Made by a program: the position numbers and the translations under genes. A stretch of DNA of 64,000 nucleotides from contig JAVEVH010000001.1 of the NCBI GenBank assembly GCA_034005145.1, forward strand, positions 1,899 to 65,898, in the 5' to 3' direction. The notes below the pieces were generated by a model. That model was not told where the DNA came from and ran no database searches. It worked only from the letters and a program-made list of their open reading frames with translations. Positions 48,387 through 62,786 of this stretch are shown piece after piece. This stretch comes from Candidatus Dojkabacteria bacterium. GTDB taxonomy: Bacteria > Patescibacteriota > Dojkabacteria > SC72. Within the stretch, counting starts at the first letter, position 1. Every line of letters starts with the position of its first letter.

Positions 48387-48460
48387 GCACCCGTAGCTCA
48401 ATTGGATAGAGCAACGCACTCCTAACGCGTAGGTTACTGGTTCGATTCCGGTCGGGTGCA
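48387..48460 (+). tRNA. tRNA-Arg (anticodon CCU)
   Basis: Acceptor GCACCCG/CGGGUGC, D-arm identical to the other two tRNA-Arg genes, anticodon loop CUCCUAA (one A-C mismatch closing the anticodon stem), T-arm ACTGGTTCGATTCCGGT. TGGTATAAT -10 lies 10 nt upstream. Confidence 0.65.
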
Positions 48461-48491
48461 TACCGTTAATATTTCTTACATATATACATAT

Positions 48492-50102
48492 ATGAATATG
48501 ACAGTAGATGAGCTTAAACCACCAGATAGGAAGGATGGATATCCATCTCAAACACCTATATGGTTAAGAAGAGTATTAGAGATATTACCAGGTAGTTTAA
48601 TATGGTTCTTTGTTCTATCTCCACTAATCTTTGCAATTTTTGGTTGGGAAGAGGTATTCGTATTCTATATTTCATACCTTATAATATATTGGGTTTATAG
48701 GGGGATTAAGTTTGTAGTAGGTATCGCTATTGGAGTAAAAAGAATGGAAAGGGACCTTAAGACAGACTTTCTTAAGTTAATAAAAGAAACAGATCAGAAG
48801 AGATTTGATGAACTTAAATATATATATTTATGTCCTGTATACAAAGAGGGTTTAGATGTTTTAGAGCCATCCTTTGAGGCATGGAGTAAGAGTGATGTAG
48901 GAGCTAAAAAGATACACGTTATTGTTGCAATGGAAGAGAGAAGTGCTAAGGATATTCAGATTCCTAATTTTGAAGTATTAAAGAAAAAATATGGTCATCT
49001 ATTCGCTAGTATGGAGTATTTTGTACATCCTACTGGTATTGAGGGAGAGGCTGCTGGTGTTAAGGGAGCCAATATTAATTGGGCTATGAGGAAGTATGTA
49101 AAGAGGTTAGAAGAGGAGGGGGAGGATATTCATAACTATATGCTAATTACATGTGATTGTGATTTAAGACCTAATCCTAAATATCTATCGGGTATTACTT
49201 ATAAATATCTTACTGTAGAAGATCCAGATCATAGGTACTATACAAGTGCTGTATATACACTGAATAATAATATATGGAGAGTACCAATATTAATAAGGGT
49301 ACAATCTACTATGTTAACTTTAGTTACATTACATAACTGGACTACAGAAAAGTATGAGACTATACCTTTCTCAAGTAGTGTATTTAGTTCTAAAGCCACA
49401 TTTTCTTCATATGTAGTTAATCTAAAGACATTAAAAGAGGTACATTACTGGGATCCACAGTTAGGTATAGATGATACGACATTTTTCTGGAATGCAGTAG
49501 TAAGGTATAAAGGGAACTTTAGAGGTGAAGAGGTATATTTGCCTAGTAATAGTGATGCAGTAGAGAATGAAACTATGCTTAAGTCGTATAAATCATTTTA
49601 TAAGCAGCAACATAGATGGGGGTGGGGTATTATTATATTCCCAACGACATTAGCAGCATTGATATATGAGAAGAATATGTCTATTGCATGGAAATTACAT
49701 ATGGTATTTGCCATTATTAAAAATTACATACTCTTTTTTACAGTAGTGTATCTCATGACTATCGGTTTAGATTTATTGGGAGTATTTAGTAATGACTATG
49801 CTTATAGCTCTGCTGCTTACAATCTACCTACTGCTATGAGTTTCCTTTTGAGCTTACTAATTATATGTAACCTATTCCTTATCTACTTTAGAAGAAAGTT
49901 AATCCCTATACCAAAGGAGTGGCCTCTATGGAGGAATATATTAGACTTTGGAGAGGTGGCATTAATTGCGGTACAGATGCTTACATTTGGTTTTATTCCT
50001 TACCTTCAAGCACATACAGAAATGATGTTTGGTAGAGGTTTTAAAAAGAATTTCTATGCTACAGAGAAAGTAAAAATGAAGAAGAGTAGGTTATCTAAAT
50101 AG
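48492..50102 (+). CDS. Family-2 glycosyltransferase, polytopic membrane (processive synthase-like, QxxRW motif)
   Basis: DxD-like TCDCD and Q(Q)HRWGWG motif, multiple TM helices at both ends. ATG at 48492 preferred over the upstream GTG, which would overlap the tRNA. Confidence 0.6.
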   Translation: MNMTVDELKPPDRKDGYPSQTPIWLRRVLEILPGSLIWFFVLSPLIFAIFGWEEVFVFYISYLIIYWVYRGIKFVVGIAIGVKRMERDLKTDFLKLIKETDQKRFDELKYIYLCPVYKEGLDVLEPSFEAWSKSDVGAKKIHVIVAMEERSAKDIQIPNFEVLKKKYGHLFASMEYFVHPTGIEGEAAGVKGANINWAMRKYVKRLEEEGEDIHNYMLITCDCDLRPNPKYLSGITYKYLTVEDPDHRYYTSAVYTLNNNIWRVPILIRVQSTMLTLVTLHNWTTEKYETIPFSSSVFSSKATFSSYVVNLKTLKEVHYWDPQLGIDDTTFFWNAVVRYKGNFRGEEVYLPSNSDAVENETMLKSYKSFYKQQHRWGWGIIIFPTTLAALIYEKNMSIAWKLHMVFAIIKNYILFFTVVYLMTIGLDLLGVFSNDYAYSSAAYNLPTAMSFLLSLLIICNLFLIYFRRKLIPIPKEWPLWRNILDFGEVALIAVQMLTFGFIPYLQAHTEMMFGRGFKKNFYATEKVKMKKSRLSK

Positions 50103-51662
50103 GTAGGAATCTATATATATGTCATCAGAAGTATCCTTATTTTCGGAGTAGAAAGTATATACCTTATCACTAGATATTGTTATTACAAAATATTTAAGTG
50201 TATCTAACTCTTTAAGTATCTCTACTTGGTTATCTCCATCCTTATCTGCAATATACAGTACATTATCCTTCTCGTACCATATATATGAGGAGTTAGATAT
50301 CCAATTTACATTTGTACTATCAGTATCCAAACCTTTGATATTTTTTGAACCTAACTCAACAGTATGATCACCATCTTGTTTATTAAATGTAAATACGTTG
50401 TATCCCTGTGTATCTTTAAATATTAATTTATAGTTATCTGGTGAGAATTGTACAAACTGTGAAGGGTAGGGGGATATTAAATAGTATTTCTGGTTATCCA
50501 TACTATACCAGTATGCAGAGGTTTCAGTTCTTAGATATATACCTTTAGCTCCTTGGTGTATTCTAATACTTTGTAATTTGCCTACACTCTTAGTACTTTG
50601 AGGAGAGTTAGTAAATGGAGCATACTTTCCTTCCTTACTATCATCTTTATACTGATCTATATATCCTTTATCTTTTTGAAAATACAAATCATCTACTAAT
50701 ACCTTACTATTAGATCCATCCATTTGTTGTTGTATTAAGAGATATGCATATACATCCTCATTTTGATTCTCGGTATTTTCATCCACCTTATAGAAGTATC
50801 CCTGTTCATCTGTACTCCATATATAGCTTTTGTCTTCCTCTTTCTTTATTAAAAGATATCTAGTTTGTCTAGAGATATCATATGAGATTAAGTCTGTATT
50901 AGAATCAAACATAAGGTACTGATTGTTTAGAGACCAACTCATTTTGTATGAAGAGAGTGCAGAGATATTTAGTTCGTCCATACTAGCTAAATTACTACTT
51001 TGAGTAGAATCAAGGAGGTAGCTTTTTGTAGAGGTTGCGTCTGTAATCTGTAATACTGCTAATATACCATTAGGAGAGAGATCTAAACCTATTTCACTCT
51101 CTTGGGGTAAGTCTAGTGTAAGTACTATCTTAGGATTAGAGCCTAGGTCCCAGAATGTTGTATTAATATCAAACCTATACAGTTCATACCTGTATAGTAG
51201 GCCCGTAGTAAGTGGTTGCTTAGTTAAGAAATATATATAGTTTTGGGATTCATTTATCCAGCTATTAACATATGTCTTTTGTGAGAGAGAGAACATATTA
51301 GATTCCAAAATCTTCTCCTTTATCAACCAAGGATGTACTGGAGTAGATTTCTCTTCCTTAATCTCAATATTCTTTTCCCATTGTACATACCCACTTCTGT
51401 AAGCAGAGATATTGTATGTGCCTACAGGTAAACTAACACTTTTAGGAGTTCTACCTTCCTGCTTACCCTCAATATATATGTTAGCAAGAGAGGGGTCGGA
51501 TTGTACTGTGAGTACACCTGTTTTGATAAAGATTTCTCCTTGTGGGTCTAATCTCCACCCATTTGCATAGAAATATATAGCTACTGCTCCTGTATATACG
51601 AATATGGAGGCGAGTATAGAGATCAATGTAAACAATCTTTTGTTGTATCCTGTGCTTTTCAT
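50091..51662 (-). CDS. Membrane-anchored PEGA-domain protein with large beta-rich extracytoplasmic domain
   Basis: N-terminal TM, PEGA motif (VQSDPSLANIYIEGKQEGRTPKSVSLPVGTYNISAYRSGY). The rest is unassigned. Confidence 0.5.
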   Translation of the reverse strand: MKSTGYNKRLFTLISILASIFVYTGAVAIYFYANGWRLDPQGEIFIKTGVLTVQSDPSLANIYIEGKQEGRTPKSVSLPVGTYNISAYRSGYVQWEKNIEIKEEKSTPVHPWLIKEKILESNMFSLSQKTYVNSWINESQNYIYFLTKQPLTTGLLYRYELYRFDINTTFWDLGSNPKIVLTLDLPQESEIGLDLSPNGILAVLQITDATSTKSYLLDSTQSSNLASMDELNISALSSYKMSWSLNNQYLMFDSNTDLISYDISRQTRYLLIKKEEDKSYIWSTDEQGYFYKVDENTENQNEDVYAYLLIQQQMDGSNSKVLVDDLYFQKDKGYIDQYKDDSKEGKYAPFTNSPQSTKSVGKLQSIRIHQGAKGIYLRTETSAYWYSMDNQKYYLISPYPSQFVQFSPDNYKLIFKDTQGYNVFTFNKQDGDHTVELGSKNIKGLDTDSTNVNWISNSSYIWYEKDNVLYIADKDGDNQVEILKELDTLKYFVITISSDKVYTFYSENKDTSDDIYIDSYLFR

Positions 51663-51714: not shown

Positions 51715-52731
51715 ATGTTAGGAAAGAAAATAGGTATCGATTTAGGTACTGCCAATTCAATAGTTTTTGTACAAGGAGAAGGTATTTCTTTTGTAGAACC
51801 TACTGTTGTTGCAATAGATGTAAATACATACAAAGTAATATCTGTTGGATCAGAGGCTAAGAAAATGATTGGTAAGACTCCAGACAATATAATTGCTAAA
51901 AGACCTCTTAAAAATGGTGTAATAGCGGATAGTAGAGTAACAGAGGCTTTACTCAAATATTTTTTAAATAAAGCATTAGGTAAATCTAGATTTTTAAAAC
52001 CAGATGTAGTAATTAGTGTACCTGCTGGTATAACTACGGTAGAACAAAGAGCTGTAGTAAAGGCAGCTACTAATGCTGGTGCTAGGCAAATCACTATGTT
52101 ACCAGAGCCGTTACTAGCAGCCTTAGGGGCAGGTCTCCCTATAGAAACCTCTTCAGGTAATATGATTGTTAACTTAGGTGGTGGTACTGCAGAGATAGCT
52201 GTAATGTCTTTGGATGGGATAGTGGAGTATGATTCTTTAAGGATAGCTGGTGACGCTATTAACGAAGCCATTATCAACTATATGAAAAAGAAAAAGGGTG
52301 TATTAATTGGAGAACAGACTGCAGAAAATATTAAGATTAGGATAGGGTCTGCAATAGAAACTAAAAATCCTAAGAGTATGGAAGTGAGAGGTAGAGATTT
52401 TGGAGCAGGGTTACCTAAAGCTATTACTGTAGATTCTAACGATATAGCTGCTGCGGTCAAGAGGCCTTTACTAAGTATAATTAATAGTATAAAAGGAGTA
52501 CTTGAGAGAACTCCTCCTGAGCTTTCTGCAGATATAATGGATAGGGGAATAGCTATGAGTGGTGGTACATCTAAATTAAGGAATTTAGATAAGCTTTTTG
52601 CAAAGGCAATAGGGGTACCTGCGTACGTTGCTGATGAACCTATGTATTGTGTTGTAAAGGGTACTGGTATTGCATTAGAATTAATGGCAACTGGTGAGCG
52701 TACGTTTACATTTAATAAATCAATTACATAA
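51715..52731 (+). CDS. mreB: Actin-like rod-shape protein MreB
   Basis: KIGIDLGTANS phosphate-1 motif and actin/Hsp70 fold motifs throughout. 338 aa. TGGTATAAT -10 ends 6 nt before the ATG. Confidence 0.85.
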   Translation: MLGKKIGIDLGTANSIVFVQGEGISFVEPTVVAIDVNTYKVISVGSEAKKMIGKTPDNIIAKRPLKNGVIADSRVTEALLKYFLNKALGKSRFLKPDVVISVPAGITTVEQRAVVKAATNAGARQITMLPEPLLAALGAGLPIETSSGNMIVNLGGGTAEIAVMSLDGIVEYDSLRIAGDAINEAIINYMKKKKGVLIGEQTAENIKIRIGSAIETKNPKSMEVRGRDFGAGLPKAITVDSNDIAAAVKRPLLSIINSIKGVLERTPPELSADIMDRGIAMSGGTSKLRNLDKLFAKAIGVPAYVADEPMYCVVKGTGIALELMATGERTFTFNKSIT

Positions 52732-52733
52732 AT

Positions 52734-53897
52734 ATGGGTATTTTTACTAAATCAGGAAAGTCATCTATGAAACTAAGTGAGGTTACTACCTTACTTTCTA
52801 AACTTAAGATACCTACTAGTTTAGTATTTACACCAATAAATCTTACTCAAGAGAAAGAGAAATTCTTAAACTCTGATACATATGAGCCTCAGTTTGAGTA
52901 CAAGATTGTTAAAAATAGGAATAGTGAGATATTAAAAGAGCTTTCATCAGTAAGAGAGATTACTGATGTAGATCCAAGAATCTCCTCCTTCTACCTCCAA
53001 TTAATAGAGTCTAAAAAAGATACAAACGATTTAATGCATGCTGTTGGTAATAATGAGTTAGTAACAGAGATATCCTTAAAGAAATATGGTAAACCATCTG
53101 CATTACTTTTTAGAAATGCTTCTAGAGTACTAAGGGGTGTAGTAGATGGATACAATCTTACTAAATATCCTAAGTTAGAGAAGGGGGATATTTTAGGATA
53201 TGAAGAGATAGTAGAGGTATTCAATACTGTCTTTGAGGAGCTTAATTTAGATGGATGGAGTGTAGCTAAGTCACAAAATATTGCTAAAAATGGTGTTAAG
53301 GTGGGTATTAAAAGAAAACAGATATTAGTAGACGCAGGTATAGAGAGGAGTAAATTCAAATTAAAGAAAACATTAGTACATGAGGTAGGTACACATGTAC
53401 TTAGGTCTGTTAATGGAGTTAAGAGTGGGTTCGAGGCCCTTAGTAAGGCTAACCTTCCAGAGTATTTAGATATTGAAGAGGGTTTAGCTACTTGGAATGA
53501 ATCTAATATGGATCTTTTAACATTGGGATGGTTAAAAGAGAAAGCTGCTTTAACATGGGCTATATATATTGGAGAGAAGCTTACCTTTAGGCAGCTGTAT
53601 AATAGTGTGTTAGGGGTATTGCCTCCTAAATCAGCATTTAGTGTTACATATAGGGTTAAGAGAGGACTAGGGGATACTAGTTATCCAGGTATATACTGTA
53701 AAGATATAGTGTACTTCAGGGGTTTTAGAAAGGTAAAAAAACAGTTAGAGAAAGACAAATCTATATATGAGAAACTATATGCTGGTAAAATAGATTTTAA
53801 GCAGTGTGAATGGGTAGATGAGGGATTAATTCCTAAAGCAGGATTAGTTCCTTCTAAAGAATTATGGAAGGGTATATTTAAAAAGGCTGGTATCTAA
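52734..53897 (+). CDS. DUF1704 / QEGLA-motif family putative zinc (tyrosine-type) carboxypeptidase
   Basis: HExxH (LVHEVGTHV) followed about 30 aa later by IEEGLA (QEGLA-like). Starts 2 nt after the mreB stop. Confidence 0.55.
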   Translation: MGIFTKSGKSSMKLSEVTTLLSKLKIPTSLVFTPINLTQEKEKFLNSDTYEPQFEYKIVKNRNSEILKELSSVREITDVDPRISSFYLQLIESKKDTNDLMHAVGNNELVTEISLKKYGKPSALLFRNASRVLRGVVDGYNLTKYPKLEKGDILGYEEIVEVFNTVFEELNLDGWSVAKSQNIAKNGVKVGIKRKQILVDAGIERSKFKLKKTLVHEVGTHVLRSVNGVKSGFEALSKANLPEYLDIEEGLATWNESNMDLLTLGWLKEKAALTWAIYIGEKLTFRQLYNSVLGVLPPKSAFSVTYRVKRGLGDTSYPGIYCKDIVYFRGFRKVKKQLEKDKSIYEKLYAGKIDFKQCEWVDEGLIPKAGLVPSKELWKGIFKKAGI

Positions 53898-54847
53898 TTA
53901 TCCTTAAATGCAGTAATAATTTCTTGAGCTATATTAATAGGATTTTCTGTTTTATTCTCGTATGCCTTAAATCCAGGATGTAAACTTATTTCCTGTAGTA
54001 ATGGTTTGTCTTTCATCATCATAATATCTACTGCTAAAAAGTCTGCCTCAAGGATTCGTGAAACATTTTGGGCCAAGGCTTTTAATTTTCCCTCAGGATT
54101 ATTGTAAGCATGGTATTCCCCCTTGCTCACTGTCATGAAACTATCCGTTGCTTCTCGTCTCCATCCTGCTATTACTTTGCCTAACTTAATAAATATACGT
54201 ATATCCTGGGCACTATCCGAGAACTCCTGTATAAACATCCTAGAGTGATCTAAATCTTTTAAATACTCCTGCCTATATCCATCTTCATTATCAATTTTAA
54301 ATACATTCTTTTTTACTTTCTCTTCACCATTTATATTTTCTAATCTATTAGCTCCAGAGTAATCTTTAATTATTAATGGGAATGCATTTAATATATCTCT
54401 GTGTGCAGAGTAATTACCATCTGTTCTAAAGTATGAGTCAAAGTAGGGGATATTATGTTTGGAGCAAAATAGAGCTAGCTCTATTTTATTGTAATATGGT
54501 AATTTTTTAATAGCTTGAGAATTTTGTACCAATATTTTGTTATCTGGATTGTCTGAGTTATGTTGATCAATGTAATCTACTATATATTTTTTAAATTGGT
54601 ACTGTATTGGATTATGTAAATCATGTCCTCTAAGTAGTATATGACTATATTTTCTAATATCCATACCTTTCGCTTTTATCACTGTTTCACCATTTATGAA
54701 CTCAAATTCGAGCTCATCAAAGTATGCTAAGGAGTGGGGTATATCTTTTTTGTCCAGTTCCTCAGTTAGTCGTAAATTGGTAGTGGCAATATTGTTCTCA
54801 TTTTCTGTTTTTACCCTCTGTTTTTTATCGATTATTAAGTAATTCAT
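53894..54847 (-). CDS. RimK-like ATP-grasp amino-acid ligase
   Basis: C-terminal half aligns to RimK: DIRIFIKLGKVIAGWRRE...VDIMMMKDKPLLQEISLHPGF vs DIRCLVVGDEVVAAIERR...[21 protein letters not shown]. Confidence 0.6.
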   Translation of the reverse strand: MNYLIIDKKQRVKTENENNIATTNLRLTEELDKKDIPHSLAYFDELEFEFINGETVIKAKGMDIRKYSHILLRGHDLHNPIQYQFKKYIVDYIDQHNSDNPDNKILVQNSQAIKKLPYYNKIELALFCSKHNIPYFDSYFRTDGNYSAHRDILNAFPLIIKDYSGANRLENINGEEKVKKNVFKIDNEDGYRQEYLKDLDHSRMFIQEFSDSAQDIRIFIKLGKVIAGWRREATDSFMTVSKGEYHAYNNPEGKLKALAQNVSRILEADFLAVDIMMMKDKPLLQEISLHPGFKAYENKTENPINIAQEIITAFKDN

Positions 54848-54851
54848 ATGT

Positions 54852-56540
54852 TTATATTTTCCTTATATTATCTATTAATTTCATCCTTTTATACCTCTTT
54901 AATATTTTCATATACTCTTTGTTTGTACTCATATCTTTTGTAATGAATACGGTATTAATATGATCAAAGCCCAGTCCGTACTCCTTTACATCATCCCAAT
55001 CTCTATGATGTATTACTATTACATCAAGTAGAGCATTACATTTTATAGATTCAAAGGATCTCCATCTTTGGGATTGTTCATTCATTAACATACCGTTAAT
55101 GTAATATCTTTCCTGTACGATTTCTCCTACAGTATCTTCCTTTTTAATCATCCATTTCCTTCTTAGTAGAGTAGGTAGGTCATCTTTACTTTGTCCAATT
55201 ACTACGAATTTCTTACATACATTTTCTTTAAGTAAAGCCTTTATATATGTTTCTGCTACATAGCTTCTCTGTTTACCAAGTATTGGATAGAAGTTAAGGT
55301 ATGATTCTGGCATTGTATTTACTTCTAGGATAGCGCCATTCTCTTTGGTTAATGGTTTAGAGAGATCTAGACACATTACATCTACACCTAAGGTAAAGGC
55401 GTGTAATGAGTTAGCTAGGCTCTCTACAATGGTTTTAATTTCCTTACTAACGGAATCTGTAAAGTCTTCTGTTATACCTCCCTGACTCATACTAGCGATC
55501 TTTCTTACCTGTATCTTTTCTTCCTTGCTAGGCACAGAGCTAAGTGTAAGCCCTTGTTCTTTAATGTAATCTTTAAGGGGTTCATCTATGTCTATGGGCT
55601 TTAATATATGGGCTGGGTTTGTAGTATCTCTTCTTGGATCTTTATTTTCTTTCTCTATTAATTCTTTAATAGTTAATTTACCATCACCGATTATAAAGGC
55701 AGGTATTCTTTTAGTAGCTATTTCTAACTTACCGTTAATAACTAGAAGCCTGTAATCTTCTCCCTGGACCTGTTCCTGTATCATTACTTTTGTTTGCCAT
55801 GTAGCTTTACCCTCTCCTGCCTCTTTAGCAAATTTAAATGCTTTTTTAGCCTCCTCTAATGTATTAATACCTACTACAACACCATGTCCACCTGTTAAAC
55901 CAGTAGGTTTAATTACGACTGGTTTCTCATACTCTGAAAATACTTCTTCTAAATGATTTAGGCTATCTATAACTTCCCACTTAGGAAGAGGAAGATTTAA
56001 TCTCTTAATCATTGTATTCGTAGACCATTTATCTCTTTGAAGATTTTGGGATATATATGCATCCTTAGAGGAAGCTATTGAACCTGTAATCTGAGAGCCC
56101 TTACCACATCCTAGAAGGTAGTATCTATTAAATATCCTCCTATATCCCTGTTTAAGATCTTTAATCATTAAATCGTCTAATACAGCTGGTGTAGTTTCAA
56201 TATTTTGATTATGTGCAGACTCTAGTACTGGGATTGTAGACATTGATTTAATTCTTCTTCCTATTACTTCTTCTATTACATACTGTTGTGCTTTTTCTAA
56301 TGTAATTTTACTTTTAGAAAGATTTACAAAGCTTTCTGCAGACTCTCTCCAAAGAAATGGTAATTTAGACCTTATAGTGAGGAGAGTGGGGGATATTGAG
56401 TATTCTTTAATAAAAAGAGGGTGGAAAGTAACAATTTTGTCTAGTATGGTAGTAATATCTCCAATATTATCTCCTTCTAAGGATATCTTTACTGTTGTAA
56501 ACTGTGATTCTAGATTTAGACCCTGTACTGTTTGTACCAT
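54852..56540 (-). CDS. Cyanophycin-synthetase-N-terminal-like ATP-grasp ligase (no Mur-ligase domain), with unique N- and C-terminal extensions
   Basis: YRLLVINGKLEIATKRIPAFIIGDGKLTIKELIEKENKDPRR ... SQGGI ... GVDVMCLDLSKPL...ILEVNTMP closely parallels the CphA ATP-grasp core. Confidence 0.65.
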   Translation of the reverse strand: MVQTVQGLNLESQFTTVKISLEGDNIGDITTILDKIVTFHPLFIKEYSISPTLLTIRSKLPFLWRESAESFVNLSKSKITLEKAQQYVIEEVIGRRIKSMSTIPVLESAHNQNIETTPAVLDDLMIKDLKQGYRRIFNRYYLLGCGKGSQITGSIASSKDAYISQNLQRDKWSTNTMIKRLNLPLPKWEVIDSLNHLEEVFSEYEKPVVIKPTGLTGGHGVVVGINTLEEAKKAFKFAKEAGEGKATWQTKVMIQEQVQGEDYRLLVINGKLEIATKRIPAFIIGDGKLTIKELIEKENKDPRRDTTNPAHILKPIDIDEPLKDYIKEQGLTLSSVPSKEEKIQVRKIASMSQGGITEDFTDSVSKEIKTIVESLANSLHAFTLGVDVMCLDLSKPLTKENGAILEVNTMPESYLNFYPILGKQRSYVAETYIKALLKENVCKKFVVIGQSKDDLPTLLRRKWMIKKEDTVGEIVQERYYINGMLMNEQSQRWRSFESIKCNALLDVIVIHHRDWDDVKEYGLGFDHINTVFITKDMSTNKEYMKILKRYKRMKLIDNIRKI

Positions 56541-56546
56541 GTTTTT

Positions 56547-57527
56547 TTATATTATCTTAGATATATACTCTATTATTGGAATTGCTACTTTAACTGTTTC
56601 TCCCTCATCTACTTTGTAGTGTACTCTTAATCCTGGATTGTAATTTATTTCATTTATTGCACACTTAGCAGGTTTAGTAATATCAGGAGTAATTATATCT
56701 ACGCCTCCAAACTGTGTCCCTATTGCTTTAACTGCTTTAACAGCAATATCTTTGTAGTATTGGTGTGTCTGTTTAGAACACTCCTGTGTAGTTCCTCCTG
56801 TAGAAAGATTACAGTTATATCTTAATATTACCTCTTCATTTACTTTGGGTATATAGCTAAGAGAGATATTTAAATTTTGGAGTCTCTGTTTAACCTCATT
56901 ATCTATTGTAATTGGTTTTAATATTTCTTTCTTTCTATCAATATTTTTATTCTCAATTAACTTCTTTATACTATCTTTACCATTACCTATTACATATGCT
57001 GATTTTCTTCTCACAATACCTATGACTTTATCTCCTAGAACTAAGAGCCTGTAGTTTTCTCCCTCTATGAATTCTTCTCCTATTACTTTGTAATCACTCT
57101 TAGCTTTAGATTCCTTTAATGCATATTTATATGCCTTTAGTACCTGTCCCTTATCTTTGGGTAATAGTGTTACTCCCTTTCCTCCTAACTGTTGAGAGGG
57201 TTTTATTACGATGTTTGTATACTGTTTAAAGAACTCTAATGCATCCTGTTTGTTTAATAGTGGTGTTTGCTTTGGTACAGGTATATCAAAATCAGAAAGT
57301 ACCATATTAGTAAGATTCTTTCTCTTAGCTATGGTTGTACTTGTTGTATTGGTTAATGGTGTTGCAGTATTAATTATGTACCAATGCTTACCATTACTTT
57401 CAAATTTAGCCATTAAAGATGGTACTACAATATTATATTTAATATTTAATATATCTGCTGCCTCAATGTAGTAGGCTAGATGTACATTACCAGCTATTTT
57501 TAAGTACTCTTCATATGTTTTAGACAT
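56547..57527 (-). CDS. Cyanophycin-synthetase-N-terminal-like ATP-grasp ligase (stand-alone, 326 aa)
   Basis: NYRLLVLGDKVIGIVRRKSAYVIGNGKDSIKKLIE ... NLSTGGT ... GVDIITPDITKP...INEINYNPG matches the CphA ATP-grasp signature blocks. Confidence 0.65.
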   Translation of the reverse strand: MSKTYEEYLKIAGNVHLAYYIEAADILNIKYNIVVPSLMAKFESNGKHWYIINTATPLTNTTSTTIAKRKNLTNMVLSDFDIPVPKQTPLLNKQDALEFFKQYTNIVIKPSQQLGGKGVTLLPKDKGQVLKAYKYALKESKAKSDYKVIGEEFIEGENYRLLVLGDKVIGIVRRKSAYVIGNGKDSIKKLIENKNIDRKKEILKPITIDNEVKQRLQNLNISLSYIPKVNEEVILRYNCNLSTGGTTQECSKQTHQYYKDIAVKAVKAIGTQFGGVDIITPDITKPAKCAINEINYNPGLRVHYKVDEGETVKVAIPIIEYISKII

Positions 57528-57546
57528 ATATTGATATATTTAAATA

Positions 57547-59022
57547 TTAAAAAGTATTACTTGTATCTATTAGATATCCTGTTAGATCGCTCCTACCAAT
57601 TGTAACTTGGTAAGGAGTATCAGAGTATTGAGTAGATACAAACTCAGTTATCTTTACTTTATCTAATATCTTTATTGGTATCTCAAATACTGGTCTAACG
57701 GTTATATCTCCATCTTCTACTATCTTTGCTAACCTCTTTATATCCTTACTTTCAGATATTTTTTCTTCATACTTATCTATGTACTCTTGTGCCTGTTTAA
57801 AACTTTCGAACTTCTTGGGTACCTCTAACTTAGTAAACTCTTTATGAGCATTAATATATCCAATACGGTTGGCTAGCTTAGAATCTATTCTAGATGTAAG
57901 TACACCTGTATCCATGAATGCTTTTACTAACTCTTTTTTAATTTTTTGAGACTTACCAATCTTACTTATATCTGTACTCTTGTCATACAGAGATATTTTC
58001 TCTGTAATATTGAGTACCTGTCTACCGCTAATAGCTTCTATACTTTCTTCAATTTCACCACCAAAGAGGTTTTTAGAGACTCTCATACCGTGTCTAATAC
58101 CCTTAATCTTTAGATCTTTTACTTTCTCTAATCTCCATCTTAAACCTGCTTGATTAGCTACTTGAATACCTAGTCCTGGTCTAGCATTTATTTCAAATAC
58201 AACAGGTCCTTTATCTATATCTAATGCAATATCTACACCTATATATCCTAAACCACTTACTTTCTGACACTTCAAAGCTATTTCTAATATCTTATCCCAG
58301 TTAGGAATTTGAATACCACTTAATGGTTTATTATCTTTTAAATCAACAGTAGAGTCTATTAATTCGTATGTATCACTTAAAAAGATATTCTTTTTCATTT
58401 GCATAGAGTAGGTAGTAATACCTGTACCAATATCTATACCGGTACATATGGCTCCTGAGTGTAAATTGGCAGTACCATTACTTCTTCTTGTTGGAAGTCT
58501 TAGCATAGCCATAACGGGGACTGAATTAAAACATATTATTCTAATATCAGGTACCCCTCTATATGAATACTGTTTAAGTAGAGGGTCTGTTTTAATCCTT
58601 TCTTCAATGATAGCGGTGTCTGTTTTAGATCCCATTGAGAATCTACCCTCTAGTATATTTTCTATATGCAATATTATATCCCTTTGGTTCATAGTTGTAC
58701 CGTTAGGTCTAATCCATTCTAATTCTCCCTTCTTCTTACCGTAAAAAACGATAATACCGTTACCACCTGTACCTTGGTTAGGTTTGATTACGAAACTTTT
58801 AGGAAGGCTCTCCCAATCTAGAAACTGTAACTGTTTCTTACTCCTTATTAATTTGTATACCTCTGGAGTTTGTATTAACTCCTTTCTAAGAACCCTTTTA
58901 GTTAATATCTTGTTATCAGCAATAGCTTTGGATGAGGGAGGGTTATAAGGTCTTACATACTCTTGGTTTCTCCTGTTTAGACCTAATACCTCCTTATTTA
59001 GTTTTAATATACTACTTGTCAT
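57547..59022 (-). CDS. Alpha-L-glutamate-ligase-related (RimK-related) ATP-grasp protein with ~190-aa C-terminal extension
   Basis: N-terminal signature LGLNRRNQEYVRPYNPP...DNKILTKRVL typical of this RimK-related family. ATP-grasp core follows, then a C-terminal region of unknown fold. Confidence 0.6.
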   Translation of the reverse strand: MTSSILKLNKEVLGLNRRNQEYVRPYNPPSSKAIADNKILTKRVLRKELIQTPEVYKLIRSKKQLQFLDWESLPKSFVIKPNQGTGGNGIIVFYGKKKGELEWIRPNGTTMNQRDIILHIENILEGRFSMGSKTDTAIIEERIKTDPLLKQYSYRGVPDIRIICFNSVPVMAMLRLPTRRSNGTANLHSGAICTGIDIGTGITTYSMQMKKNIFLSDTYELIDSTVDLKDNKPLSGIQIPNWDKILEIALKCQKVSGLGYIGVDIALDIDKGPVVFEINARPGLGIQVANQAGLRWRLEKVKDLKIKGIRHGMRVSKNLFGGEIEESIEAISGRQVLNITEKISLYDKSTDISKIGKSQKIKKELVKAFMDTGVLTSRIDSKLANRIGYINAHKEFTKLEVPKKFESFKQAQEYIDKYEEKISESKDIKRLAKIVEDGDITVRPVFEIPIKILDKVKITEFVSTQYSDTPYQVTIGRSDLTGYLIDTSNTF

Positions 59023-59689
59023 CGTCTCTACCAGTAAATCTAAATCTAAAGTAATCCTTTATCCTCAAACCTTTAAACATACCAATTAAGATATTTAAGA
59101 TTGCAAGTAGAGGTATTAACCATAGATTGTTTAGGAAGTAGTCAGAGATTATCTCTCTAGTTATTACAAACCATCCAAATACTGCTACTAAGATTGTAGT
59201 AAGTAGAGTCATTACAGATGATTGTAGGGACTTTTTGACATACTGCTTTGTAAAAAAGTCAGAGAGAGCCGCTATTGATATGAAAGCGAGTGGGGGGATA
59301 TTAGACATATTCTCTAAACCTAATCCTAAGGTATCTATTAATACAAAGAAAAGAACTAATACCATTGAGAGGACAATATAGTTGGTAGCAATACGAGTAA
59401 TGTAATGTATTCTTACCTTTTTAAGTACAGAGTAGGAGAGTAAAGAGGTTAATATTACAATCAATGTTACTGCTAAACCGTATTTTAATCCTGTATATGA
59501 GTATGCAATTGAAAGAAGTACTGGAGCATATATACCGTATGTCTTACCTCCTACAAGATATCTAGAGATACTTACAATGGTTGCTACAATACACATAGCT
59601 ATGAGTATTTCTAATACCATTTGTGATATACCATGATCAATTATCCACTCTGTTAACTTGGATGTTTCAAACATATATATATTGATCAA
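59012..59689 (-). CDS. Polytopic membrane protein (6-7 TM), first gene of the ATP-grasp operon
   Basis: Hydrophobic helices throughout. Stop overlaps the next gene's start by 11 nt. The start is more likely the ATG at 59674 than the TTG at 59689. Confidence 0.5.
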   Translation of the reverse strand: MINIYMFETSKLTEWIIDHGISQMVLEILIAMCIVATIVSISRYLVGGKTYGIYAPVLLSIAYSYTGLKYGLAVTLIVILTSLLSYSVLKKVRIHYITRIATNYIVLSMVLVLFFVLIDTLGLGLENMSNIPPLAFISIAALSDFFTKQYVKKSLQSSVMTLLTTILVAVFGWFVITREIISDYFLNNLWLIPLLAILNILIGMFKGLRIKDYFRFRFTGRDDDK

Positions 59690-59740
59690 AAATTAGAATA
59701 TTTAACCCTCCATTATACTTTGTATATGTATATTTTGTCG

Positions 59741-59771
59741 ATGAAAAGAAAAGAGAGCCTTTCGGCTCTCT
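59741..59771 (-). terminator. Rho-independent terminator after rplL (minus strand)
   Basis: Hairpin agagagcc-tttc-ggctctct preceded on the + strand by an A-run (U-run on the minus-strand transcript). Confidence 0.6.
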
Positions 59772-59796
59772 TTAAGATACTTTTTAAAGATTTAGA

Positions 59797-60974: not shown

Positions 60975-61355
60975 TTACCAATTGGGGTCTGCTATAAGTT
61001 TTGGGGGGAGTTTACCAATAAAAATTTTAATACATTCCTGACAATCAGGCCTCCCTTCTTTCTGGGGCCTTGTTTTAACAATCTTTGTTAAAACAATTGT
61101 CTTATCTTTCAATTCTCTGACGTGGAAGCGAAAACCCTCTTTGGTTTCTATTATTGATTTTTGTGGCATTCCCTTACCTTCGATAACGTCTGAAATTTGA
61201 AAGGATCGACCTTTATGGTGCAAATGTTCGTCAGAAATGTAAACGCAATTGTTTTTTTGAGACCTACAATTGTAATCAGAAGCAATTACCTCTGGTGGTT
61301 CTTGCTCTTCTTTACAATCCTTGCAATATTGCTTAAACTCGCAAAAGTCACACAT
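60975..61355 (-). CDS. Cys-rich hypothetical protein (126 aa; CxxC...CxxC at both termini), inserted in the rplKAJL cluster
   Basis: Four CxxC-type pairs (CDFCEF, CKDC, CQEC...). Codon third positions visibly more G/C-rich than neighbouring genes. Confidence 0.45.
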   Translation of the reverse strand: MCDFCEFKQYCKDCKEEQEPPEVIASDYNCRSQKNNCVYISDEHLHHKGRSFQISDVIEGKGMPQKSIIETKEGFRFHVRELKDKTIVLTKIVKTRPQKEGRPDCQECIKIFIGKLPPKLIADPNW

Positions 61356-61466: not shown

Positions 61467-62786
61467 TTATATTCCCCAATCATCAAGATGTTTATATCTA
61501 TTAGATATCCTGTAAGTATCTTTCCCATTATGTGTAACTTTTTGTATGACCTCTGGCTTCTCTTTCCATATATTTCGCAACCTCTCTTGGTTGTATGTAA
61601 TAAGATTATTGTATATCTCTACAAGTTTTCTTAAGTTATTGGCAAAGACTGAGTCTTTTTCAGTTAATTCATACATATCCGCACGAAATTCAAAAGTATG
61701 TATGTCACTAAGATAGGGGGGCTCTCGTAGTGCTTGCGGATTCTCTTTAAGAATAGATGCAAATTTTGTAAGTTCATGTAAATCATCTAGGTAATCTTTT
61801 TTATGTTCGGCTTTTACATAAGGAGAACCGAGTAGAGTGTTTTCTAATAGTTTTGATTCTCCTAAATCACCCTTATTGGCGGTTTTTTCTGAAATAAAGG
61901 TCTCTCTCATACCCACTGCACTTATTTTTTCTTGTAGTTCTGGAACTATTGTTGGGTGATATTTAACGTCTTTTGAGGGCTCTATTGAAGCTTTTACTAC
62001 TTTCCAAAAAATATCTTGATCTTTGAAGTTACCAGGTAAAATTCTGAAATGCATATTTAAATACTCTGCGAGATCAATATTTAACATCTCTGCTCTTGCC
62101 TTTATATCTGGAAGTAAATCTCTGAGATCATATTCATTAAGGAAAATAATACCTTTCTCTAGTGGGATACTTACTCCTTCCTCATTGTATGCTGCCATAG
62201 CACTACCACTAGAAGCAATATCATTAGAGATTCTAGTACCTTCTAGGCCTGATACAGGTATTGCAAAAAATGCTCCAAATATGTAACTACCTCCACCTTC
62301 TCCATCTGTTTCTCTACCAGTTCTTGCTTCAAAACATACTCTATCTACATCAAAATAGGCTTCTCCATATCGAATCAGTTCTTGGCGAGTAAGCTCTCTT
62401 TTGCTTGGTGAGACTACTGCTCCCTGTTTAATTATTTTTCTTAGTACATCTTTATCCCAAGATATACCAAGTTCTCTTTTGTCAGAAGCTGGTAGGTTAC
62501 TATCGAAACCATGGATAAGGATGGATCCTTCTAATGGATTTCTAAGCCGTTCTGCATGTACCTTTTCTAATAGATCAGAGTAGGTGGGGTAATTATTTCT
62601 GAAATCGGAGGAATTTTCATAGTATCTTTTATATCTGTCTTTATCGGGAATATGGTAATGTTCCAGTTCTAACTCTTTAACCTTGGTAAATAGTTCTTCT
62701 CTAATCTTTTCTTCCTCTGGAGTGTATAGGTTCTCTGTTGTAATAGTTTCCATATTATTTATTCTATACATATTTAGTATAAACAA
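61467..62786 (-). CDS. Hypothetical protein (439 aa), inserted between rplA and rplJ
   Basis: Long ORF, no recognised motif, slightly elevated GC. Confidence 0.45.
   Translation of the reverse strand: MFILNMYRINNMETITTENLYTPEEEKIREELFTKVKELELEHYHIPDKDRYKRYYENSSDFRNNYPTYSDLLEKVHAERLRNPLEGSILIHGFDSNLPASDKRELGISWDKDVLRKIIKQGAVVSPSKRELTRQELIRYGEAYFDVDRVCFEARTGRETDGEGGGSYIFGAFFAIPVSGLEGTRISNDIASSGSAMAAYNEEGVSIPLEKGIIFLNEYDLRDLLPDIKARAEMLNIDLAEYLNMHFRILPGNFKDQDIFWKVVKASIEPSKDVKYHPTIVPELQEKISAVGMRETFISEKTANKGDLGESKLLENTLLGSPYVKAEHKKDYLDDLHELTKFASILKENPQALREPPYLSDIHTFEFRADMYELTEKDSVFANNLRKLVEIYNNLITYNQERLRNIWKEKPEVIQKVTHNGKDTYRISNRYKHLDDWGI

What the first reader, a model, noticed from the sequence alone, without database searches (positions are those of the whole stretch)
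52734..59689. Operon of four ATP-grasp amino-acid ligases plus a polytopic membrane protein, convergent on an mreB-linked DUF1704/QEGLA-type putative carboxypeptidase: candidate undescribed ligation/trimming system
Seen in sequence: on the minus strand five tightly packed genes (59689 to 53894; overlaps of 11 nt and gaps of 4-19 nt). They encode a 6-7-TM membrane protein, an alpha-L-glutamate-ligase-related ATP-grasp protein (N-terminal GLNRRNQEYVRPYNP signature) with a ~190-aa extension, two cyanophycin-synthetase-N-terminal-like ATP-grasp proteins (YRLLV.NGK...GDGK.TI.ELIE..N.DPRR; NLSTGG/SQGG; GVD...PDITKP...E.N..PG) that both lack the Mur-ligase half, and a RimK-like ATP-grasp protein. The cluster ends 4 nt inside the stop of a convergent + strand gene encoding an HExxH...EEGLA protein (DUF1704/QEGLA family). 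Established knowledge: RimK adds poly-Glu tails to ribosomal S6. CphA ATP-grasp modules extend poly-Asp backbones. The bacterial three-gene association (alpha-L-glutamate-ligase-related protein, 7TM membrane protein, QEGLA/DUF1704 zinc peptidase) is a described but functionally unsolved system. To my recollection the eukaryotic tubulin detyrosinase MATCAP is a DUF1704 member. Inference: this locus expands that triad to four ligases of two distinct chemistries (RimK-type and CphA-type). This suggests stepwise synthesis of a branched or hetero-poly-amino-acid chain (cyanophycin-like or a protein C-terminal tail) at the membrane, with a dedicated trimming peptidase. Nothing like a four-ATP-grasp plus DUF1704 cassette is a standard annotated pathway.
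Basis: partly seen in the sequence, partly recalled or inferred. Interest (0 to 1): 0.8.

Follow-up and report, generated by a model that had tools for sequence, protein, structure and literature searches.

The report
Expanded Rlo-type peptide ligation/trimming module
A candidate-phylum bacterium (Dojkabacteria) carries a phylum-wide gene cluster that enlarges the recently described but biochemically unsolved "Rlo" envelope-stress system with three extra peptide ligases and a second peptidase, probably to build and trim an acidic peptide chain at the membrane.

Summary
In detail: five tightly packed minus-strand genes lie convergent on a MATCAP/DUF1704 peptidase gene. The interpretation needs correcting.

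- The core (7TM protein plus "alpha-L-glutamate-ligase-like" ATP-grasp) matches RloB and RloC of the Pseudomonas rlo system (mBio 2025).
- The ligase's ~190-aa "extension" is a fused RloA/RimB-like retropepsin with an invariant DTG. The locus therefore encodes two peptidases.
- The 562-aa "CphA-like" protein is a full structural homolog of cyanophycin synthetase 2 (N + G + truncated, P-loop-less M).
- The 326-aa protein is a bare CphA G domain that keeps all Asp-binding residues.
- The 317-aa protein is a very divergent RimK-like ligase.

The six-gene layout is syntenic in about 60 Dojkabacteria species. Other CPR lineages keep 7TM plus the ligase::retropepsin fusion in different contexts, with zero to five extra genes, so the ligases form a variable add-on set. 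MATCAP occurs only in Dojkabacteria.

The recalled "ligase-7TM-QEGLA triad" was not reproduced. No acceptor protein was identified.

Verdict: a new, elaborate variant of a known but unsolved system. Product unknown; moderately high interest.

The parts
59012..59689 (-). Polytopic membrane protein, RloB-like 7TM module without the transglutaminase domain (225 aa)
   Evidence: PF14402 7TM_transglut at 60 bits. NF052267 RloB matched only over model positions 311-503 of 508. A crude hydropathy scan gives 5-7 hydrophobic segments. It is the first gene of the operon in all loci.
58117..58998 (-). RloC-like ATP-grasp ligase domain (residues 9-302 of the 491-aa protein)
   Evidence: TIGR02291 at 297 bits (cutoff 314) and PF14397 at 231 bits. 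Invariant residues include K80, E140/E141, R161, D264, E277 and N279.
57550..58011 (-). RloA/RimB-like retropepsin domain fused to the ligase C-terminus (residues ~338-491), with a ~45-aa helical insert
   Evidence: D371-T372-G373, T376 and R378 are invariant, as is the C-terminal IGRxxL motif. 14 of 16 orthologs hit the NCBIfam RloA3 and RloA2 models (best E 2.9e-8). The domain aligns to PDB 9g59/9g58 at MDTGxxTS and RPV…IG. Orthologous fusions in L076 and L075 hit PF05618 (E 3e-11 and 4.5e-7). In the AF2 model this domain has pLDDT ~70-89.
56547..57527 (-). Stand-alone CphA G-domain-like ATP-grasp ligase (326 aa)
   Evidence: NF010623 at 215 bits over model positions 192-470. PDB CphA1 7lgn at E 1e-34. 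It keeps the equivalents of R309, R323, N394, S396, R458, D431 and E450, but E215 is replaced by T and H267 by G.
54852..56540 (-). CphA2-like protein: N domain + G (ATP-grasp) domain + truncated M domain without a P-loop (562 aa)
   Evidence: AF2 pLDDT 86. The Foldseek top hit is CphA2 7ta5 (E 1.7e-39, TM 0.69/0.67, ~590 aligned columns). The profile aligns to CphA1 and CphA2 through residue ~537, and GTNGKT is replaced by GQSKDD. K211, R264, R278, D387, E406 and N408 are kept, while N394 becomes S, G456 becomes E and R458 becomes Y.
53894..54847 (-). Highly divergent RimK-like ATP-grasp ligase (317 aa)
   Evidence: PF08443 at 43 bits; TIGR00768 at 50 bits (cutoff 143). K161, G165, Q207, D215, R217, R231, D274 and E286 are invariant in 59 orthologs. 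The Asn of the E-x-N motif is Ser in 52 of 59.
52734..53897 (+). MATCAP/DUF1704-family metallopeptidase (387 aa), convergent on the ligase operon and 2 nt downstream of mreB
   Evidence: PF08014 at 99 bits. It aligns to human MATCAP 7z5g with HEVGTH matched to HEIGTH and with EEGLA. H216 and E248-E249-G-L-A are invariant in 52 orthologs.
51715..52731 (+). mreB (context gene; probably co-transcribed with the MATCAP gene)
   Evidence: PF06723 in the orthologous loci. Adjacency is conserved across Dojkabacteria, including OLB20 where MATCAP is missing. The C-terminus is neither acidic nor conserved.
59712..59773 (-). Terminator-like hairpin after rplL (59773-59750), followed by the best promoter-like site (59741-59712), upstream of the 7TM gene
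   Evidence: The hairpin has a 10-bp stem followed by a T-run. The promoter-like site is TCGACA-18-TATAAT, 11 of 12 matches. These are consensus matches only.

Best explanation
The locus encodes the Dojkabacteria form of an Rlo-type system: a RimK-like peptide ligase working with a 7TM membrane partner and a retropepsin.

Proposed mechanism, step by step:
1. The RloC-like ATP-grasp, held at the membrane by the RloB-like 7TM protein, makes an acidic alpha-linked chain. The chain is probably poly-Glu-like, either free or on an unidentified acceptor.
2. The retropepsin domain fused to the ligase cuts over-long acidic runs from within.
3. Three accessory ligases add further residues to the chain's C-terminal carboxylate.
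   - The 326-aa CphA-G-type enzyme has an intact Asp pocket and probably adds Asp or a similar residue.
   - The 562-aa CphA2-type enzyme shares the polymerase scaffold and, like CphA2, has Tyr in place of the Arg that holds a single incoming Asp. It probably adds a larger unit or acts processively.
   - The 317-aa RimK-like enzyme has unknown specificity.
4. The MATCAP-type metallopeptidase probably removes C-terminal residues, giving a ligation/trimming cycle.

What is shown: domain identities, intact catalytic residues, operon structure, conservation across the phylum, and recurrence of the core in other CPR lineages.

What is inferred: the chemistry, the order of steps, the membrane role, and MATCAP's participation.
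For: - Family and fold assignments.
- Catalytic and substrate-site conservation.
- Identical six-gene synteny in about 60 Dojkabacteria species.
- The 7TM + RloC::retropepsin core recurs in Microgenomates-type CPR genomes with unrelated flanks and a varying ligase complement. L094 has none. L091-L093 have two RimK-type ligases. L075 has two RimK-type ligases, a CphA-G-like ligase and two unknown proteins. L076 has LAL, Mur-like and CphA-G-like ligases. This shows a functional module with add-on ligases.
- The operon has its own promoter-like site after a terminator-like hairpin.
- Published genetics (PMC12239564): loss of rloB or rloC suppresses the lethality of losing the RloA proteases; RloA cleaves runs of at least 8 Glu; the phenotypes concern the envelope and cell shape.
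- MATCAP-family genes sit next to ATP-grasp ligases in Pararhizobium.
- Relatives of the 326-aa ligase occur as multi-ATP-grasp fusions with PGA_cap and acylphosphatase domains.
Against: - No product or acceptor is known, even for the Pseudomonas system.
- The Dojkabacteria 7TM protein lacks the transglutaminase domain.
- The protease is cytoplasmic and fused, not secreted, so the topology differs from RloABC.
- MATCAP is probably transcribed with mreB. It is absent from all non-Dojkabacteria versions, from WS6 OLB20, and from next to the operon in L058.
- The housekeeping flanks (rplKAJL, mreB) are as syntenic as the module within the phylum, so conservation inside Dojkabacteria alone does not prove linkage.
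- The 317-aa ligase has Ser in place of the metal-binding Asn.
- Substrate assignments rest on residue mapping from alignments, not on assays.
Confidence: 0.5

Rival explanations
1. Post-translational tail code. The ligases add Glu, Asp or other residues to the C-terminus of a specific protein, as RimK does on S6 or TTL/TTLL enzymes do on tubulin. The retropepsin and MATCAP remove them. The target would be a neighbour such as MreB or L7/L12.
For: - RimK and RimB do exactly this on RpsF (PMC12239564, PMC4741518).
- MATCAP is a tubulin detyrosinase homolog with an intact active site.
- The MATCAP gene starts 2 nt after mreB.
- The module abuts rplL in Dojkabacteria and, in the opposite orientation, in L093.
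Against: - MreB C-termini are neither acidic nor conserved (…KSIT, …FRR, …SW).
- The last residue of L7/L12 varies (A, E, K, Q, V).
- No window ORF of at least 100 aa has an acidic C-terminus.
- A dedicated 7TM partner and a CphA2-type polymerase scaffold fit a free or exported chain better.
- S6 could not be examined.
Confidence: 0.2
2. Cyanophycin-like storage polymer. The CphA2-like and CphA-G-like enzymes make a cyanophycin-type reserve polymer and the peptidases mobilise it.
For: - The 562-aa protein is a full-length structural homolog of CphA2 and CphA1.
- The 326-aa protein keeps all Asp-recognition residues of the CphA1 G domain.
- WS6 OLB20 pairs a CphA-G-like ligase with a Mur-ligase-like protein, resembling a split G + M.
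Against: - There is no active M domain: the P-loop is lost.
- The acidic residue that binds the primer's Arg side chain (E215 in CphA1, D212 in CphA2) is T in the 326-aa protein and N/K/E in the 562-aa family.
- N394 is changed to Ser in the 562-aa protein.
- Scores are far below the CphA model cutoffs (233-242 versus 850-877 bits).
- No cyanophycinase is present in the cluster.
- The genes are embedded in an Rlo-type module.
Confidence: 0.1
3. Small peptide osmolyte or metabolite. The ligases make a di-, tri- or tetrapeptide (as in NAGGN or glutathione synthesis) that is handled by the membrane protein, and the peptidases degrade it.
For: - Both CphA-like proteins also match GshAB and N-acetylglutaminylglutamine synthetase models (E 1e-30 to 1e-51).
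- Rlo phenotypes are osmotic (PMC12239564).
- A QEGLA/MATCAP gene is induced 27-fold at low salinity in Photobacterium.
Against: - RloA-type retropepsins need at least 8 Glu to cleave (PMC12239564).
- The CphA N domain and truncated M scaffold of the 562-aa protein are polymerase features.
- Two peptidases of protein/peptide type are unnecessary for a dipeptide.
Confidence: 0.12
4. No common function. The genes are neighbours only because gene order is frozen in this small-genome phylum.
For: The flanking housekeeping genes (rplKAJL, mreB, the PEGA protein, the GT2 gene) are equally syntenic within Dojkabacteria.
Against: - The genes overlap or are separated by only 4-19 nt.
- The 7TM + fusion + extra ATP-grasp ligases recur in other CPR lineages with different flanks.
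- The Pseudomonas homologs interact genetically (PMC12239564).
Confidence: 0.05

Closest known systems
RloABC (retropepsin-like osmotic stress tolerance) operon of Pseudomonas aeruginosa (Lormand et al., mBio 2025, PMC12239564)
   Same: Both have an RloC-type ATP-grasp (TIGR02291/PF14397), the 7TM module of RloB (PF14402), and an RloA-type retropepsin with DTG, encoded together. The product is unknown in both.
   Different: - Here the retropepsin is fused to the ligase C-terminus, has no signal peptide, and carries a ~45-aa insert.
- The 7TM protein lacks the inactive transglutaminase domain.
- Three further ligases and a MATCAP peptidase are attached.
- The host is a CPR bacterium, whereas RloB was reported as 96% proteobacterial.
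RimK/RimB (ribosomal protein S6 poly-glutamylation and trimming)
   Same: Both pair a cytoplasmic ATP-grasp alpha-L-Glu ligase with a cytoplasmic retropepsin that trims poly-Glu. The fusion here mimics the RimK-RimB complex.
   Different: - The 491-aa ligase belongs to the RloC subfamily, not RimK proper.
- The 317-aa protein scores far below the RimK family cutoff and has Ser at the E-x-N position.
- A membrane partner is present.
- No S6-like acceptor was identified.
Cyanophycin synthetase 2 (CphA2; PDB 7ta5, 8fxh/8fxi)
   Same: The 562-aa protein shares the N + G + truncated inactive M architecture, has lost the M-domain P-loop, and has Tyr at the position of CphA1 R458.
   Different: - Sequence identity is about 21-23%.
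- The primer Arg-binding Asp (D212) and the large-loop Asn are not conserved.
- The genomic context is Rlo-type, not cyanophycin metabolism.
- It is about 70-80 residues shorter.
MATCAP / DUF1704 / QEGLA family (PF08014; human MATCAP 7z5g; TIGR02421)
   Same: HExxH and the EEGLA glutamate are conserved, and the Pfam score is well above the gathering threshold. Elsewhere the family also neighbours ATP-grasp ligases (Pararhizobium).
   Different: - This is a stand-alone 387-aa form. The proteobacterial QEGLA proteins examined are ~630-660 aa, and in Vibrio the N-terminal part is an FGase domain.
- It scores 115 bits against a cutoff of 338 for TIGR02421.
- It is paired with mreB and an Rlo-type operon, an arrangement seen only in Dojkabacteria.

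Membership tests
Rlo system (RloABC) | RloC-type ATP-grasp (alpha-L-glutamate ligase-like, TIGR02291 / PF14397) | tested here: met
   PF14397 at 231 bits (gathering threshold 31). TIGR02291 at 297 bits over positions 9-290 of 317, just under its 314-bit equivalog cutoff.
Rlo system (RloABC) | RloB: inactive transglutaminase domain fused to 7 TM helices | tested here: not met
   Only the 7TM half is present. NF052267 matches model positions 311-503 of 508 at 32 bits (cutoff 900), and the protein is 225 aa.
Rlo system (RloABC) | RloA: retropepsin-like aspartic peptidase with a DTG motif | tested here: met
   DTG is invariant. 14 of 16 orthologs hit the RloA3/RloA2 models. PF05618 hits in the orthologous fusions of L075 and L076.
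Rlo system (RloABC) | RloA is a separate, secreted protein with an N-terminal signal peptide | tested here: not met
   The domain is fused C-terminally to the cytoplasmic ligase (residues ~338-491), so it has no signal peptide of its own.
Rlo system (RloABC) | Role in hypo-osmotic tolerance, with epistasis of rloB/rloC over rloA | not testable with these tools
   This needs genetics. Only the published Pseudomonas data exist (PMC12239564).
RimK family (TIGR00768) | Score above the family cutoff and the canonical D…E-x-N Mg-binding motif (tested on the 317-aa protein) | tested here: not met
   50 bits against a cutoff of 143. The motif is E-I-S in 52 of 59 orthologs. The other ATP-grasp residues are invariant.
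Cyanophycin synthetase 1 (CphA1) | N + G + catalytically active MurE-like M domain, with a score above the equivalog cutoff | tested here: not met
   233-242 bits against cutoffs of 850-877. In the 562-aa protein the M domain is truncated and GTNGKT is replaced by GQSKDD. The 326-aa protein has a G domain only.
Cyanophycin synthetase 2 (CphA2) | N domain + G domain + truncated inactive M domain | tested here: met
   Foldseek top hit 7ta5, E 1.7e-39, TM 0.69/0.67 over the full length. The profile alignment reaches StCphA2 residue 576.
Cyanophycin synthetase 2 (CphA2) | Residues that bind the beta-Asp-Arg primer and substrate (D212, the large-loop Asn) | tested here: not met
   The D212 position is N, K or E in the family, and the large-loop Asn is Ser (ASMSQGG). 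The equivalent of R308 and the Tyr at the R458 site are kept.
Cyanophycin synthetase 2 (CphA2) | Polymerises beta-Asp-Arg into cyanophycin | not testable with these tools
   This needs an enzyme assay.
MATCAP / DUF1704 (PF08014) | Pfam score above the gathering threshold, and the gluzincin HExxH plus the EGLA glutamate | tested here: met
   99 bits (gathering threshold 27). HEVGTH and EEGLA align to human MATCAP and are invariant in 52 orthologs.
QEGLA protein (TIGR02421 equivalog) | Score above the equivalog cutoff | tested here: not met
   115 bits against a cutoff of 339. The proteobacterial members examined are ~630-660 aa, and the Vibrio one has an FGase N-terminal domain.

The most novel reading that the evidence does not exclude
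Dojkabacteria make a previously unknown non-ribosomal hetero-poly(amino acid). An acidic chain is started by an RloC-type ligase and extended by a CphA2-derived polymerase together with CphA-G-type and RimK-type ligases. It is handled by a 7TM protein for an envelope or cell-shape role, and its length is set by a built-in endo-peptidase (retropepsin) and a MATCAP-type C-terminal exo-peptidase. This would be a bacterial ligation/trimming cycle built from the same enzyme families as the eukaryotic tubulin code, and a second natural product class for the cyanophycin synthetase lineage.
Probability: 0.2. Interest if true: 0.8.

Novelty: new variant of a known kind. Interest (0 to 1): 0.6.

Why it matters
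- **The Rlo system is unsolved.** It affects antibiotic tolerance, biofilm formation, cell shape and hypo-osmotic survival in Pseudomonas, yet its chemical product is unknown.
- **The CPR versions could help solve it.** They fuse ligase and protease and add different sets of defined peptide ligases. This natural series could reveal what the core makes and how it is elaborated.
- **The module is probably important to these cells.** A phylum with roughly 1-Mb genomes keeps about 7 kb for it in nearly every species examined.
- **It places cyanophycin-synthetase-derived enzymes in a new context.** They appear outside nitrogen storage and alongside a bacterial MATCAP homolog and RimK/TTL-like ligases.
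- **This gives a tractable prokaryotic model** for reversible C-terminal amino-acid ligation and trimming.

Tried and rejected
1. **Fold search of the full 491-aa model.** The model was poor overall (pLDDT 60) and the hits were all ATP-grasp enzymes. The C-terminal domain had to be identified from profiles and orthologs instead.
2. **Direct Pfam scan of the window's C-terminal domain.** It gave only a faint Asp_protease_2 hint (E 0.16).
3. **First genome scan with a 26-sequence alignment.** It failed because no stretch was conserved enough, so it was repeated with 10 sequences.
Four proteobacterial QEGLA loci were examined and none has the other two genes within 8 kb.
5. **MreB as acceptor.** Rejected as unsupported, because its C-termini are not acidic and not conserved.
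6. **L7/L12 as acceptor.** Its last residue varies.
7. **Acidic C-termini among window ORFs.** None was found.
8. **The closest non-CPR relatives of the 326-aa ligase** (Calditrichia, Cytophagia, Deltaproteobacteria; 31-34% identity). They carry none of the other module genes, so they say nothing about the system.
9. **Literature searches** for MATCAP + ATP-grasp + bacteria, DUF1704 + ATP-grasp, and Dojkabacteria + cyanophycin returned nothing. Iyer et al. 2009 (PMC3268129), the likely first computational description of these families, is not held.

Full report
**1. Observation**

- Minus strand: 59012-59689 (225 aa), 57547-59022 (491 aa), 56547-57527 (326 aa), 54852-56540 (562 aa) and 53894-54847 (317 aa). 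They are spaced by an 11-nt overlap and gaps of 19, 6 and 4 nt.
- Plus strand: 52734-53897 (387 aa). Its stop overlaps the stop of the 317-aa gene by 4 nt, and it begins 2 nt after mreB (51715-52731).
- A terminator-like hairpin (59773-59750) follows rplL. The strongest promoter-like site in the region (59741-59712, 11 of 12 matches) precedes the first gene (consensus matches only). The five genes therefore look like their own transcription unit, while the MATCAP gene looks co-transcribed with mreB.
- Base composition is uniform with the rest of the window.
- The 491-aa protein is 100% identical to an NCBI protein of a Candidatus Dojkabacteria (WS6, CPR) MAG.

**2. What each protein is**

*7TM protein (225 aa).* It matches PF14402 (7TM_transglut). 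It matches only the C-terminal 7TM part of the NCBIfam RloB model, so it lacks the transglutaminase domain.

*491-aa protein, ligase half.* It is an RloC-type ATP-grasp (PF14397 231 bits; TIGR02291 297 bits against a cutoff of 314), and all ATP-grasp residues are invariant.

It is an RloA/RimB-like retropepsin.
- D371-T372-G373, T376 and R378 are invariant, as is a C-terminal IGRxxL motif.
- 14 of 16 orthologs hit the RloA3 and RloA2 models, with a best E-value of 2.9e-8.
- It aligns to PDB 9g59/9g58 at MDTGxxTS and at RPV…IG.
- The orthologous fusions in L076 and L075 hit Pfam PF05618 directly, at E 3e-11 and 4.5e-7.
- A ~45-aa helical insert explains why the window copy escapes Pfam.

*326-aa protein.* It is a bare CphA G domain. 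I mapped it onto the TeCphA1 residues defined in PMC9427784.
- It keeps the primer-carboxylate Arg (R309→R160).
- It keeps the whole incoming-Asp pocket (R323→R174, N394→N240, S396→S242, R458→R301).
- It keeps the Mg ligands.
- It loses the Glu that binds the primer's Arg side chain (E215→T65).

*562-aa protein.* It is not just an ATP-grasp.
- A confident model (pLDDT 86) matches cyanophycin synthetase 2 over its full length. The top hit is 7ta5, at E 1.7e-39 and TM 0.69/0.67 over ~590 columns, followed by the CphA1 structures.
- The profile aligns through the start of the M domain, where GTNGKT is replaced by GQSKDD. StCphA2 has also lost this P-loop.
- Like StCphA2, it has Tyr at the position of CphA1 R458.
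- Unlike both CphA1 and CphA2, its large-loop Asn is Ser, and the primer Arg-binding acidic residue is not conserved.

*317-aa protein.* It is a very divergent RimK-like ligase, at 43-50 bits and far below the family cutoff.
- K161, G165, Q207, D215, R217, R231, D274 and E286 are invariant in 59 orthologs.
- The Asn of the E-x-N motif is Ser in 52 of 59.

*387-aa protein.* It is a MATCAP/DUF1704 member (99 bits), with HEVGTH and EEGLA aligned to human MATCAP and invariant in 52 orthologs.

**3. Conservation and context**

*Within Dojkabacteria.* Neighbourhoods of 562-aa orthologs at 54-67% identity, together with 80 loci from GTDB species genomes, show one layout. It appears in essentially every Dojkabacteria locus that is long enough:

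rplL > 7TM > RloC::retropepsin > 326 > 562 > 317 | < MATCAP < mreB | PEGA protein >

Because the housekeeping flanks are equally syntenic, this alone does not prove functional linkage.

*Outside the crown group.* These loci carry the decisive evidence.
- **WS6 OLB20 (L076):** it has the 7TM gene, the fusion, an LAL-type ATP-grasp, a Mur-ligase-like protein and a CphA-G-like ligase, and then mreB. It has no 562-aa gene, no 317-aa gene and no MATCAP.
- **L075 (a MAG labelled Beckwithbacteria, with unrelated flanks):** it has the 7TM gene, the fusion, an unknown protein, a RimK-like ligase, an unknown 611-aa protein, RimK and a CphA-G-like ligase.
- **Relatives of the L075 fusion** are common in Microgenomates-type CPR lineages.
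- **L094:** it has only the 7TM gene and the fusion.
- **L091, L092 and L093:** each adds two RimK-type ligases. In L093 the module is convergent on rplL-rplJ-rplA-rplK.
- **None of these loci has MATCAP.**

The stable core is therefore 7TM + RloC::retropepsin. The extra ligases are a lineage-specific add-on set, and the window carries the most elaborate version seen here.

*Fusion relatives.* Relatives of the 326-aa ligase also occur as giant multi-ATP-grasp fusions with PGA_cap, YheC/D, LPG_synthase_C and acylphosphatase domains. This shows that multi-ligase assemblies of this subfamily exist elsewhere.

**4. Link to known systems**

NCBIfam names led to Lormand et al. 2025 (PMC12239564). 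Their main findings on the P. aeruginosa rlo system are:
- rloABC encodes a secreted retropepsin (RloA), an inactive-transglutaminase-7TM protein (RloB) and an ATP-grasp (RloC).
- A triple RloA-protease mutant dies in hypo-osmotic medium, has cell-shape, biofilm and antibiotic defects, and is rescued by deleting rloB or rloC.
- RloA cleaves runs of at least 8 Glu.
- The product of RloB and RloC is unknown.
- The paper reports RloB as 96% proteobacterial and does not mention MATCAP.

Other observations:
- A Shewanella RloB-like mutant over-produces membrane vesicles (PMC12096838).
Four proteobacterial QEGLA loci have neither of the other genes within 8 kb.
- The QEGLA proteins in those loci are ~630-660 aa. 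The Vibrio one has an FGase (N-formylglutamate amidohydrolase) N-terminal domain.
- In Pararhizobium the neighbours are a separate FGase and a GshB-like ATP-grasp, so MATCAP-family genes do associate with ATP-grasp ligases elsewhere.
- A Photobacterium QEGLA gene is induced 27-fold at low salinity.

**5. Mechanism**

The best-supported reading, at a confidence of about 0.5, is as follows.
- A membrane-associated RloC-type ligase builds an acidic alpha-linked chain.
- The fused retropepsin limits the length of acidic runs.
- The CphA-G-type, CphA2-type and RimK-like ligases add further residues or units to the C-terminal carboxylate.
- MATCAP probably trims C-terminal residues.

Domain identities, intact active sites, operon structure and recurrence of the module are shown. 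The chemistry, the order of steps, export and MATCAP's participation are inferred.

Rival explanations:

| Rival | Confidence | Main evidence against |
|---|---|---|
| Protein C-terminal tail code | 0.2 | MreB and L7/L12 tails are not conserved acceptors |
| Small peptide osmolyte | 0.12 | Retropepsin needs ≥8 Glu; the 562-aa protein has polymerase features |
| Cyanophycin-like storage polymer | 0.1 | No active M domain, no Arg-binding residue, no cyanophycinase |
| Mere synteny | 0.05 | The core recurs in other CPR lineages with different flanks |

**6. Novelty and score**

This is a new variant of a known kind. It is an Rlo-type system with a fused cytoplasmic protease and a 7TM protein lacking the transglutaminase domain. 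It also has three extra ligases, one of them CphA2-derived, and a MATCAP peptidase. It is conserved across a CPR phylum.

I found no description of it in the searchable literature. The foundational paper, Iyer et al. 2009, could not be read.

Interest is 0.6. The finding is surprising in its combination of parts and useful for an open question (what Rlo systems make). However, the product and the acceptor are unknown, and MATCAP's membership is unproven.

Noticed in passing
window 12088-28161 (+): A single 5357-aa open reading frame, about a quarter of the window. It was not examined.
   Followed up: no
window 60975-61355 (-) and 61467-62786 (-): A 126-aa Cys-rich ORF and a 439-aa ORF lie between rplA and rplJ, interrupting the rplKAJL cluster. 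Neither has a Pfam match. Other Dojkabacteria loci (L003, L005) also carry small unknown ORFs at this spot.
   Followed up: partly
P0250, P0264, P0266, P0279, P0296 (representative-library hits to the 326-aa ligase): Giant proteins of 1,300-2,300 aa fuse two or three CphA-G-like ATP-grasp modules with acylphosphatase, PGA_cap (poly-gamma-glutamate capsule), YheC/D ATP-grasp, LPG_synthase_C or TPR domains. These look like uncharacterised multi-ligase megaenzymes.
   Followed up: partly
L076 4244-11032 (WS6 bacterium OLB20): A variant operon in which an L-amino-acid-ligase-type ATP-grasp (ATP-grasp_4 + LAL_C2) and a Mur-ligase-like protein replace the CphA2-like ligase, the RimK-like ligase and the MATCAP gene. 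The CphA-G-like ligase plus the Mur-like protein resemble a split cyanophycin synthetase.
   Followed up: partly
L075 2417-3241 and 4116-5951: Two ORFs (274 and 611 aa) with no Pfam match sit inside the ligase operon of the MAG labelled Beckwithbacteria. They may be further unrecognised components.
   Followed up: partly
L003, L013, L022, L027, L053 (upstream of rplKAJL): A second MreB paralog (43-49% identity to the window MreB) lies upstream of the ribosomal protein cluster in several Dojkabacteria, so these genomes carry two mreB genes flanking the region.
   Followed up: no
L087 5101-7092; L088 4394-8165: Proteobacterial QEGLA/MATCAP proteins are ~630-660 aa. The Vibrio one has an N-formylglutamate amidohydrolase (FGase) N-terminal domain. 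In Pararhizobium the gene lies between a separate FGase and a GshB-like ATP-grasp. A Photobacterium damselae QEGLA gene is reported as 27-fold induced at low salinity (PMC10308900).
   Followed up: partly
window 48456-50102 (+) and 50091-51662 (-): A polytopic GT2-family glycosyltransferase and a PEGA-domain protein flank mreB and are syntenic with the module in most Dojkabacteria. This is possibly a wider envelope or cell-shape neighbourhood.
   Followed up: partly
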